Source: Octopus vulgaris (Eukaryota). Taken from it: DNA of 64,000 nt. Below the pieces are notes generated by a model. It was not told the DNA's origin, did not search any database, and saw nothing but the letters and a program-made list of their open reading frames with translations. The position numbers were made by a program, and so were the translations under genes. The stretch spans positions 12,400,001-12,464,000 of the forward strand of contig OX597820.1 of assembly GCA_951406725.2 (NCBI GenBank). The letters are read 5' to 3'. This document shows positions 9,275 through 64,000 of this stretch, one piece after another. Numbering within the stretch: the stretch's first letter is position 1; every line of letters starts with the position of its first letter.

Positions 9275-9396
9275 GCGTTGGTAGCTGAGACTTTGATATT
9301 AGCGAAAACCCATGGCTACGCGGATAAGATTGAAAATGAGTTGGAAGAAGAATTGCGTCGTGACAGTAAGGGGCCCCCAAAAGAAATTTCGGCGAG
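9275..9396 (+). CDS. Internal coding exon, N-terminal cytoplasmic region of Hv-like proton channel (ALVAETLILAKTHGYADKIENELEEELRRDSKGPPKEISA-R)
   Basis: ctacag acceptor, 122-nt open frame, AG|gtaagt donor. It ends in phase 2, and AG+A forms an Arg codon with the exon at 46924, giving ...KEISARLRRKGEMFFHSRF. The link across 37.5 kb is inferred from phase only. Confidence 0.7.
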
Positions 9397-46923: not shown

Positions 46924-47048
46924 ATTACGTCGAAAAGGAGAGATGTTTTTCCATAGCCGCTTTGTGATTTTAACCGTTGTTATTTTGTGCGTTCTTGACT
47001 GCGCCTTGGTCCTGGGAGAACTTATTTTGGACTTGCACAGTGTTAGAG
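46924..47048 (+). CDS. HVCN1: Coding exon: S0-S1 helix of voltage-gated proton channel (LRRKGEMFFHSRFVILTVVILCVLDCALVLGELILDLHSVR)
   Basis: tttcag acceptor and G|gtaagt donor. The peptide aligns by eye with human Hv1 [33 protein letters not shown], keeping the D112, E119 and D123 equivalents. The symbol denotes the family; orthology versus paralogy is unresolved. Confidence 0.9.
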
Positions 47049-55917: not shown

Positions 55918-56243
55918 ACACGCTGCAAGAAACAGAAAAACTTAGTGATTCATTTATAAATAAACTCAGGAAAAAATACCCAGCAGACATGGAAGGCATG
56001 CAGGAGCACTTGATCTATGTTTATGAAAAAGTTCTAGACTCCGTAATGACGTGGCCCAAGAATAGCTCGGTGCCCAACACAACCCGTCCAATACACCGCT
56101 CGCGACGTGCAGCCGACGTCGACCCTATAATGGAAAAGTGGAATGTTCATGTGCGGTTACCCGGCTCTCATACGCTCGAAGAAGAGATAGGGCACGCCTT
56201 CCATTTGGCCAGTATCTCCATACTTGCAGTCTTAGTCGCTGGT
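55918..56243 (+). CDS. HVCN1: Coding exon: long S1-S2 loop plus S2 helix of Hv-like channel (DTLQETEK...RSRRAA...EEEIGHAFHLASISILAVLVAG)
   Basis: atttcag acceptor; G+AC forms an Asp codon with the preceding exon. FHLASISIL matches Hv1 S2 FHYMSITIL. The donor is either ggt|gtaaat (end 56243) or g|gtgtaa (end 56241). Confidence 0.85.
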
Positions 56244-62499: not shown

Positions 62500-64000
62500 A
62501 GTATGTGACAGCTGAAGAGAAGCTGCACCTACAGACTGATCTTCATTTGCTCATAAAGGGCAGTGTAATGCCCAGTCCTGAGTTCGAACCCACAGCCTGT
62601 TAACCAGTAAGCTATGTAACGTCCATTCCATCATGTCAGAAAGTGATGATGGTAATCTTTATATGTGTAATCGCCTGCCAAGATTTGTGTTCAATAATTA
62701 AAGCCAGTGTGAATCTTCGTTTATTTTTCTATGACATGTACGCACCCTGTTAACTGAAGCGTGACATATATCTTAAGTTGTAATAAGATATCACAGCGTG
62801 CTTTCCGTTCTCCCTCTTGCATCTTTGTTTCAATCATACCATTGCTATGCAAACACTGTTAGTATCAGTATTTCAACTGACGTACTTTATATGGTATTTC
62901 TTATTTTCCATAGCATTTTTATTAAAACATTCAACCTGAAATTGCTTGCATATATGTAAAATAAACACCGAACATTTGTCTGGCATAAAGAGGAGTGTTA
63001 CGAATAGGTTTTGTGCAACAGAAATATAGATATTAACAAAGATTTATCTACTTTCTCATTTTTTGCCTGTGCTTTACTGCTTTTAAGCATTCTACATTTG
63101 GCTTTACATATATTTACAGACGTTATTAAAAATGATATGTTTCGGCACAAGATTTTTTAAAGGAAAATTGGAGGTAAGTTAGCCATCAGGTGGATTCCTT
63201 ACTTTTCTTTTAAATCGTATGCACATGTGTAAATCTTATATGTCTGAAAGAATGAATTGGATATTTGTTAGAGATGCCAAGGAATGTGTAAACCTGATAC
63301 AAGAAATAACATTATTTTTAGGTAACCCAAGCAGAAATACTTGCTTAAGGTAATGGGACAATTGTAAACATGTTAATAGTATAAGTTTATTCACAAATAA
63401 TGATTCAACAAACTCTAAGATATATATTCATTTGGGAGGGTGATGGAGATAAAATCCTAATGCCATAGGGTTCTTTCTGAAGCAAATATTATTACATGTT
63501 CCGTAGAGTGATGAACTGAGGCTATAAATATTAGTCAACCATCTCATTCTCGGACTGTCAGTAGGTTTCGTACTGGCTGGCTGTGTATGGAACCCTCTCT
63601 TTCAGTTCTTTAATGTGACATTCTTATCACGTGTCTGTAGTATCTGGGAGAAGTAGCGGCGCAAGAATATAACGTTAAGCCGTTATAACGTATCAAAAGT
63701 ATTTAATATGGAGTCAAATGTCAAATGGGCAATAAGGTCAAAATGAAGTTACTGAATCAAGATCTACTGAAAGCTGTATTCTAAGGGCTTTAGAAAATTT
63801 CTTGTGCTAGGGTATCTGATTGAAATGAGGTAAGCATGTGAAGCATATTTACAGACTTACTAAGAAAACAGTATTTACGAACTATTTATCAATTCCTGAA
63901 ATGTATTTATAAATAAATGCTACCTTACAGAACAGTGGAAATACTTTGAAAAAAAACGCTCCAATGAAAAGGGTTTACGATGAATGTTTTGGGTTAGAGA

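What the first reader, a model, noticed from the sequence alone, without database searches (positions are those of the whole stretch)
55918..56190. Hv channel with a ~90-aa extracellular S1-S2 insert bearing a furin-type site and N-glycosylation sequons
Seen: about 90 residues lie between S1 and S2, against roughly 10 in human Hv1. They include NSS and NTT sequons followed by HRSRR|AA (R-X-R-R). Established: the S1-S2 linker is extracellular/luminal, R-X-K/R-R is the furin consensus, and molluscs have several Hv paralogues. Inference: this proton channel may be glycosylated and proteolytically processed in its voltage-sensor loop, a regulation mode I do not know of for Hv1.
Basis: partly seen in the sequence, partly recalled or inferred. 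Interest (0 to 1): 0.7.

Follow-up and report, generated by a model that had tools for sequence, protein, structure and literature searches.

The report
Furin-site loop in Hv3 proton channels
This octopus gene encodes a member of the known mollusc Hv3 proton-channel family, and its long outer loop carries a furin-type protease motif that recurs in about half of the relatives examined, from octopus, snails and clams to annelids and ribbon worms, so these channels are likely cut into two chains as they mature, which is untested.

Summary
Observation confirmed. Exon 55918-56243 encodes most of a 99-residue S1-S2 loop with sequons NSS and NTT and RSRR|AA. The gene is an Octopus Hv3-type proton channel (S1 Asp, S4 LPWRVIR). 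The long loop is already published as an Hv3 trait. I found no furin site reported for it. In this loop alone the motif could be chance (5%). Across the family it is not: R-X-K/R-R occurs in 50 of 104 Hv3-type loops against 3.5 expected. It is directional like furin specificity, much less enriched in the cytoplasmic tails, absent from 11 long loops of non-Hv3 channels, and present in chiton, annelid and nemertean relatives and twice in the recorded Aplysia AcHv3. It lies in a segment predicted to be disordered. Best reading: a proprotein convertase nicks the voltage-sensor loop during maturation, giving a two-chain channel. Cleavage and any effect on gating are untested, and 30 of 104 relatives have no basic site. 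Side result: all 104 Hv3-type sequences lack the Phe150 gasket residue, a simpler candidate cause of the published AcHv3 leak.

The parts
9275..9396 (+). Upstream coding exon, cytoplasmic N-terminal helix (about residues 17-57 of P0001)
   Evidence: tblastn of P0001/P0007 and splice sites CTACAG| and |GTAAGT
46924..47048 (+). Exon encoding S0-S1; selectivity-filter Asp82 (human Asp112 equivalent) at 46997-46999
   Evidence: alignment to human Hv1 5oqk
55918..56243 (+). Exon encoding most of the 99-aa S1-S2 loop and the first 14 residues of S2
55918..56054 (+). Conserved, predicted helical part of the loop (residues 99-144): S1 helix continues to residue 118, short helices 120-139, then Trp144 (28 of 28 in the orthologue alignment)
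   Evidence: AlphaFold2 model, pLDDT about 70-80; conservation
56061..56069 (+). N-glycosylation sequon N147-S-S (use inferred)
   Evidence: sequons in 65 of 65 loops, 2.5-fold over shuffle, reversed control 1.1-fold
56076..56084 (+). N-glycosylation sequon N152-T-T (use inferred; absent in Argonauta P0006)
56097..56108 (+). Furin-type motif R159-S-R-R162; predicted cut before Ala163 (between 56108 and 56109), inside the predicted disordered segment 147-182
56202..56243 (+). Start of S2: His194 (human His140 equivalent), Leu204 in place of the gasket Phe150 (56232-56234), Gly207 in place of Glu153 (56241-56243)
63120..63173 (+). 54-bp exon: end of S2 and the S2-S3 linker. The S3-S4 exon (LPWRVIR) lies just past the window at G000:C7:12465047-12465184

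Best explanation
This is an Hv3-type proton channel whose S1-S2 loop carries a conserved furin-type site and is likely glycosylated and likely nicked there by a furin-like proprotein convertase as it passes the late secretory pathway. Shown here: Hv3 membership, the loop anatomy, and family-wide, directional retention of R-X-K/R-R amid otherwise unalignable sequence. Predicted: a helical extension of S1 followed by a disordered, accessible segment that holds the site. Inferred: cleavage yields two membrane-anchored chains (N-terminus + S1 + helical ectodomain; a 31-residue stub + S2-S4 + C-terminal tail) that stay together as one voltage-sensor bundle. Because 45 of 50 loops with a site have a single site cluster, no peptide would normally be released. 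I commit to a maturation step that unlinks the S1 ectodomain from S2 and so licenses or tunes conduction after the Golgi, in the manner of ENaC. This last step is the weakest (about 0.4 on its own); the confidence given is for in vivo cleavage at this site.
For: R-X-K/R-R in 32 of 65 de-replicated loops against 2.3 expected (maximum 6 in 300 shuffles); the C-tails of the same proteins give 10 of 65 against 6.4 and the N-tails 9 of 59 against 3.9. Wider set: 50 of 104 against 3.5. With TM-core identity thinned below 50%: on average 7.4 of 16.2 against 0.83. Directional like furin: R-[nonbasic]-K/R-R 32 of 104 against 2.9; reversed 5 against 2.7; Lys at P4 3 against 2.9; Lys at P1 5 against 3.4. 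P1' of 35 sites is Ala 9, Ser 9, Glu 4, Thr 4, never Leu/Ile/Val/Phe. In cephalopods the X position varies (Ser, Lys, Asn) while the three Arg stay. In a 28-sequence orthologue alignment R159 and R162 (20 of 28 each) are the best-kept residues between 145 and 182; the next reach 14 of 28. Sites occur in a chiton, an annelid and two nemerteans and twice in AcHv3. Non-Hv3 channels with loops of 40 aa or more: 0 of 11. Site in a pLDDT<50 segment. The genome has 7 convertase P-domain matches.
Against: No cleavage product, glycan or current was observed. 30 of 104 Hv3-type loops have no basic site and 24 have only a dibasic or R-X-X-R site. Seven clam orthologues of this very gene lack it. The two other Hv3-type genes found in this genome lack a canonical site. 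So processing is not essential to the family. The segment is long and predicted floppy, so it is not obvious that a nick changes gating. Homologues are related, so counts overstate independent events. The 0 of 11 contrast is weak because those loops are Arg-poor (about 0.04 expected). The altered S4 and loss of Phe150 can explain odd Hv3 gating without any cleavage.
Confidence: 0.65

Rival explanations
1. The loop is cut constitutively but the cut does not alter gating; it serves trafficking, turnover or inactivation (for example by letting the S1 fragment, which carries the selectivity Asp, part from S2-S4). This shares the cleavage step with the best explanation and differs only in its effect.
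For: Single site in 45 of 50 loops and no conserved sequence after P2'; disordered context; repeated losses in whole clades. AcHv3 has intracellular retention motifs (PMC10911540, section read).
Against: No direct evidence against it; retention across three phyla says only that the site matters, not how.
Confidence: 0.3
2. The arginine cluster is kept as an uncleaved binding patch (for polyanions, matrix or a partner), or is shielded by the nearby glycans and not cut.
For: Many sites are runs of Arg (Arg at P3 in 13 of 35). The sequon at N152 lies 7 residues before the motif.
Against: A charge patch would not prefer Arg over Lys at P1 and P4, nor one direction, nor small or acidic P1' residues. 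K-X-K/R-K occurs in 1 of 65 loops against 2.3 expected.
Confidence: 0.2
3. The motif is a chance feature of a fast-evolving loop.
For: 5% chance in this loop alone; about half of the family lacks the canonical motif.
Against: About 14-fold enrichment that survives thinning to below 50% core identity and is confined to the loop.
Confidence: 0.05
4. The loop is a gene-model artefact and the real mRNA joins the exons differently.
For: Junctions were not checked with reads from this species; the donor at 56243 (GTAAAT) is not the strongest consensus.
Against: In-frame canonical splice sites; identical S1-S4 in 16 of 19 further isoform records; transcript-sized contigs of a relative encode the same joining; the whole family has the loop.
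Confidence: 0.03

Closest known systems
Aplysia AcHv3 and the molluscan Hv3 family (PMC10911540, PMC10377628)
   Same: S1 Asp, S2 His, S4 xPWRxxR, long S1-S2 loop. AcHv3 (P0125) itself has RFRR|S and RRKR|S in its loop and Leu at the Phe150 position.
   Different: The octopus gene falls in a separate 21-row clade (SH-aLRT 98, quick tree), so it is likely a paralogue rather than the AcHv3 orthologue. Loop 99 against about 300 aa, one site against two, Gly at the Glu153 position. Neither paper's main text mentions furin or glycosylation.
Human Hv1 and its cleaved sperm form Hv1Sper (PMC8004680, passages)
   Same: Same four-helix fold (best sequence match 5oqk, E 1.8e-19); proteolysis changes channel properties.
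   Different: Hv1Sper loses 68 cytoplasmic N-terminal residues. Here the predicted cut is external, between S1 and S2, and would split the voltage sensor itself.
ENaC alpha/gamma (PMC11339754, passage)
   Same: Conserved protease sites in an extracellular segment; furin cleavage activates the channel. This is the 'works like' model.
   Different: Unrelated fold. ENaC activation involves release of inhibitory tracts by double cleavage (recalled), whereas most Hv3 loops have one site cluster.
TRPML1 luminal S1-S2 loop cleavage; Shaker/Kv1 S1-S2 glycosylation (recalled, not confirmed by a passage here)
   Same: Glycosylated, and for TRPML1 cleaved, S1-S2 loop in a voltage-sensor-like domain.
   Different: TRPML1 is cut by lysosomal proteases and conducts through a separate S5-S6 pore; in Hv the sensor is the pore.
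Molluscan Hv2-type channels
   Same: Long, His-rich S1-S2 loops with sequons (67-130 aa in six sequences, including an O. bimaculoides protein).
   Different: Conventional LRLWR S4 and Phe150 kept; none of the six has R-X-K/R-R.

Membership tests
Hv voltage-gated proton channels | Four-helix voltage-sensor domain without a pore domain | tested here: met
   Four hydrophobic segments; model matches the Ci-VSP voltage sensor at Z 13.6, rmsd 3.3, 131 aligned, tied with designed four-helix bundles; profile hits human and mouse Hv1. Pfam Ion_trans was not hit by P0001.
Hv voltage-gated proton channels | Asp selectivity filter in S1 | tested here: met
   Asp82 aligns with the S1 Asp of 5oqk
Hv voltage-gated proton channels | Proton-selective, voltage- and pH-dependent current | not testable with these tools
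   Recorded only for the paralogue AcHv3 (PMC10911540)
Hv voltage-gated proton channels | C-terminal coiled-coil dimer | tested here: inconclusive
   Long helix 251-322 predicted; no dimer model obtained
Conventional Hv1/Hv2 | S4 RxWRxxR with the first Arg | tested here: not met
   S4 is LPWRVIR
Conventional Hv1/Hv2 | S2 gasket Phe (Phe150) | tested here: not met
   Leu204; Phe in 0 of 104 Hv3-type and 22 of 23 other sequences
Hv3 family | S4 motif xPWRxxR | tested here: met
   definition from PMC10377628 section 2.1.4
Hv3 family | Large extracellular S1-S2 loop | tested here: met
   99 aa
Hv3 family | Groups with AcHv3 apart from conventional Hv | tested here: met
   Within the 87-row clade that holds P0125 (SH-aLRT 98; quick, midpoint-rooted tree)
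Furin/proprotein-convertase substrates | R-X-K/R-R with a small or acidic P1' (consensus from established knowledge) | tested here: met
   RSRR|AA; family statistics
Furin/proprotein-convertase substrates | Site luminal and accessible | tested here: inconclusive
   External by Hv topology; sequon enrichment in the loop but not the tails supports luminal exposure; disorder is only predicted
Furin/proprotein-convertase substrates | Demonstrated cleavage | not testable with these tools
   Needs Western blot or N-terminomics

The most novel reading that the evidence does not exclude
Hv3 channels are pro-channels: a furin cut in the voltage-sensor loop, inherited from the lophotrochozoan ancestor, converts a silent or tightly gated precursor into a two-chain, leaky proton channel. 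The published AcHv3 leak would then be the behaviour of a cleaved channel that also lacks the Phe150 gasket, and convertase availability would set where in the secretory pathway protons flow.
Probability: 0.3. Interest if true: 0.82.

Novelty: new variant of a known kind. Interest (0 to 1): 0.6.

Why it matters
In Hv channels the voltage sensor is also the pore, so a programmed cut between S1 (selectivity filter) and S2-S4 would split the conducting unit itself; I found no such case in the papers searched. It gives the large, unexplained Hv3 loops a candidate function. It also makes a published puzzle directly testable: AcHv3 was recorded in mammalian cell lines that are expected to express furin (recalled), carries two sites, and leaks protons for unknown reasons. 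Two point-mutation experiments (remove the sites; restore the Phe150 equivalent) would separate the causes.

Tried and rejected
Pfam on the exon alone and on P0001 gave no relevant family. Foldseek gave no match at E<=0.001; the wide VIA search recovered only the voltage-sensor bundle and generic four-helix bundles, and the ectodomain was not folded or searched alone. The ESM Atlas gave no usable hit for residues 94-194. Sequencing-run search: no RNA holder listed on record (14 full holders only guessed as RNA); no reads were laid, so expression and junctions are untested by reads. No dimer or ectodomain complex model was obtained. A tethered-agonist role for the new N-terminus was rejected: residues after P2' are not conserved. 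Release of a peptide as the general mechanism was rejected: one site cluster in 45 of 50 loops. Loss of the site by A-to-I editing was rejected: the Arg codons are CGC, CGA, CGT. A first reversed-motif control (R-K/R-X-R) was confounded by Arg runs and was replaced by non-overlapping controls. The careful tree did not finish; the quick tree was used. Earlier scan findings: nothing. A search for a TRPML1 cleavage passage gave no relevant paper.

Full report
Observation. The exon runs 55918-56243 with canonical splice sites and joins in frame to an S1 exon at 46924-47048 and a 54-bp exon at 63120-63173. An N-terminal exon lies at 9275-9396, and the S3-S4 exon lies about 1 kb past the window end. 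The exon is 100% identical to database proteins named for Octopus vulgaris and O. sinensis; P0001 (416 aa) is used for numbering. The loop from the end of S1 to the S2 His is 99 aa, against 11-17 aa in the ten shortest conventional Hv loops measured the same way. By itself this loop would carry R-X-K/R-R in 5.1% of shuffles and two sequons in 8.4%, so one sequence proves little.

What the gene is. S1 has the selectivity Asp (Asp82), S2 begins with the usual His, and S4 reads LPWRVIR. That is the published signature of the 'unconventional' molluscan Hv3 family, which is also defined by a large S1-S2 loop (PMC10377628, section 2.1.4 read). AcHv2 has a 79-aa and AcHv3 a 299-aa loop (PMC10911540, passages and the AcHv3 section read). 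The long loop is therefore known. In a quick tree of 127 transmembrane cores (loops left out; careful search unfinished; SH-aLRT only; midpoint root) the octopus gene sits in a 21-row clade with gastropod and bivalve orthologues, apart from the AcHv3 clade.

Is the furin motif more than chance? Of 107 homologues from two searches, 85 gave a complete S1-loop-S2-S4 by motif extraction. 22 were dropped, mostly fragments but also three near-complete proteins, two of which show RVKR|S by eye. After de-replication at 90% core identity, 32 of 65 loops have R-X-K/R-R against 2.3 expected (maximum 6 in 300 shuffles). The C-tails give 10 of 65 against 6.4 and the N-tails 9 of 59 against 3.9. Sequons occur in 65 of 65 loops, 2.5-fold over shuffle, while the reversed sequon is 1.1-fold and the tails show no excess. 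A profile search added 118 proteins, of which 62 were complete enough to use. In the joint set 50 of 104 Hv3-type loops have the motif against 3.5 expected, 24 have only a dibasic or R-X-X-R site, and 30 have none. One sequence with S4 LVLWR was reassigned to Hv3 because it nests in that clade. Thinning to below 70, 60 and 50% core identity leaves on average 22.5 of 48.1, 12.2 of 26.6 and 7.4 of 16.2, against 1.45, 1.0 and 0.83.

The signal looks like protease specificity, not a charge patch. R-[nonbasic]-K/R-R occurs in 32 of 104 against 2.9; the reverse in 5 against 2.7; Lys at P4 in 3 against 2.9; Lys at P1 in 5 against 3.4. P1' in 35 sites is Ala, Ser, Glu or Thr in 26 and never Leu, Ile, Val or Phe. 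That furin prefers such sites is established knowledge, not tested here. In an alignment of 28 orthologues, 17 have the canonical motif, 3 oysters have R-X-P-R, one Mytilus model lacks the segment, and 7 clams lack it as one clade; R159 and R162 are the best-kept residues of region 145-182. Sites also occur in a chiton, the annelid Owenia and two nemerteans, and twice in AcHv3. Eleven non-Hv3 channels with loops of 40 aa or more have none (Fisher p 0.002, not corrected for relatedness), but those loops are Arg-poor, so this shows absence rather than avoidance.

Anatomy. The AlphaFold2 model (45-sequence alignment, mean pLDDT 67.5, pTM 0.50) has S1 continuing as a helix to residue 118, short helices at 120-139, and low confidence at 147-182, which holds both sequons and the site; S2 resumes at about 185. 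The transmembrane part matches the Ci-VSP voltage sensor (Z 13.6, rmsd 3.3, 131 aligned). No fold was assigned to the ectodomain. The genome has 7 convertase P-domain matches; which of them is furin was not determined.

Mechanism. The likeliest course is N-glycosylation in the ER and a single convertase cut after Arg162 in the late secretory pathway, leaving two membrane-anchored chains in one bundle. 45 of 50 loops have one site cluster and the sequence after the cut is not conserved, so neither peptide release nor a tethered agonist is the general rule. I put in vivo cleavage at about 0.65. Whether it licenses conduction as in ENaC (PMC11339754, passage) or only affects trafficking and turnover is open; I favour licensing, at about 0.4. 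Against a central role: about half of the family lacks the canonical site, as do seven orthologues and, as far as seen, the two other Hv3-type genes of this genome.

A competing cause of Hv3 behaviour. All 104 Hv3-type sequences replace the S2 gasket Phe, which 22 of 23 other sequences keep (register from the alignment to 5oqk). The AcHv3 paper suggests a gasket breach as one possible cause of the leak but does not name this residue in its main text. With the missing first S4 Arg, this may explain the leak without cleavage. The residue labels His140 and Glu153 are recalled human numbering; Asp112 and Phe150 appear in PMC10377628.

Prior art. Searches: 'voltage-gated proton channel' + Aplysia + S1-S2 + mollus (3 papers); Hv3 + mollus + proton channel (1); 'voltage-gated proton channel' + furin (15 papers, 12 listed, none on this by title or abstract); furin + cleavage + 'S1-S2 loop' + channel (0); Hv1 + proteolytic cleavage + extracellular loop + glycosylat (3, unrelated by listing); AcHV3 (14). 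The main texts of PMC10911540 and PMC10377628 have no hit for furin or glycosyl. Not seen: their supplements, the FEBS J Hv4 paper, and an announced Hv3-family manuscript, any of which could mention the motif. Hv1Sper shows that proteolysis of an Hv channel is known, at the cytoplasmic N-terminus (PMC8004680, passages). TRPML1 loop cleavage and Kv S1-S2 glycosylation are recalled only.

Verdict. A real feature and a new variant of a known kind: the channel family and its long loop are published, while the conserved convertase site appears not to be. The evidence is comparative and statistical only. Interest 0.6, because cheap mutations in an already recorded channel can test it.

Noticed in passing
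window 56232-56234 and 104 Hv3-type homologues: The S2 hydrophobic-gasket Phe (human Phe150) is Leu 81, Ile 11, Met 9, Val 3 in 104 of 104 Hv3-type sequences, against Phe in 22 of 23 others. The AcHv3 paper suspects a gasket breach but its main text has no hit for 'phenylalanine' or 'F150'. A direct candidate cause of the Hv3 leak.
   Followed up: partly
window 56241-56243: The S2 counter-charge Glu153 equivalent is Gly in all 8 cephalopod sequences; it is Glu in 81 of 104 Hv3-type and 23 of 23 other sequences.
   Followed up: partly
P0171, P0164, P0175 (Owenia); P0158 (Lineus); P0159 (Tubulanus): Annelid and nemertean channels have the LPWR S4 with proline, although the review PMC10377628 states the proline is missing in these phyla.
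   Followed up: partly
G000:C25:17056538-17056675 (-) and G000:C25:17573377-17573514 (+): Two further Hv3-type genes about 0.5 Mb apart. The first has a 177-aa loop with only a dibasic RR; the second matches P0166, whose loop has no basic site (its loop exon was not located in the stretches fetched).
   Followed up: partly
P0024-P0029, P0080 and other site-less loops: Loops with no basic site usually carry a Cys (24 of 30, against 18 of 50 with a furin site). In seven clam orthologues a single Cys sits about where R-X-X-R was: possibly a disulfide in place of a cut. Not corrected for relatedness.
   Followed up: no
P0018 against P0023 (Mytilus): One gene model lacks 20 loop residues including the RVKR site that the other has: alternative splicing of the site or a model error.
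   Followed up: no
P0111, P0113, P0117 against P0007/P0008: Asn/Asp variation in the loop among unnamed transcript-sized contigs; compatible with A-to-I editing or with an allele.
   Followed up: no
G000:C7 downstream of the window (L002-L010): Many alternative C-terminal exons; database isoforms run from 359 to 474 aa with S1-S4 unchanged.
   Followed up: no
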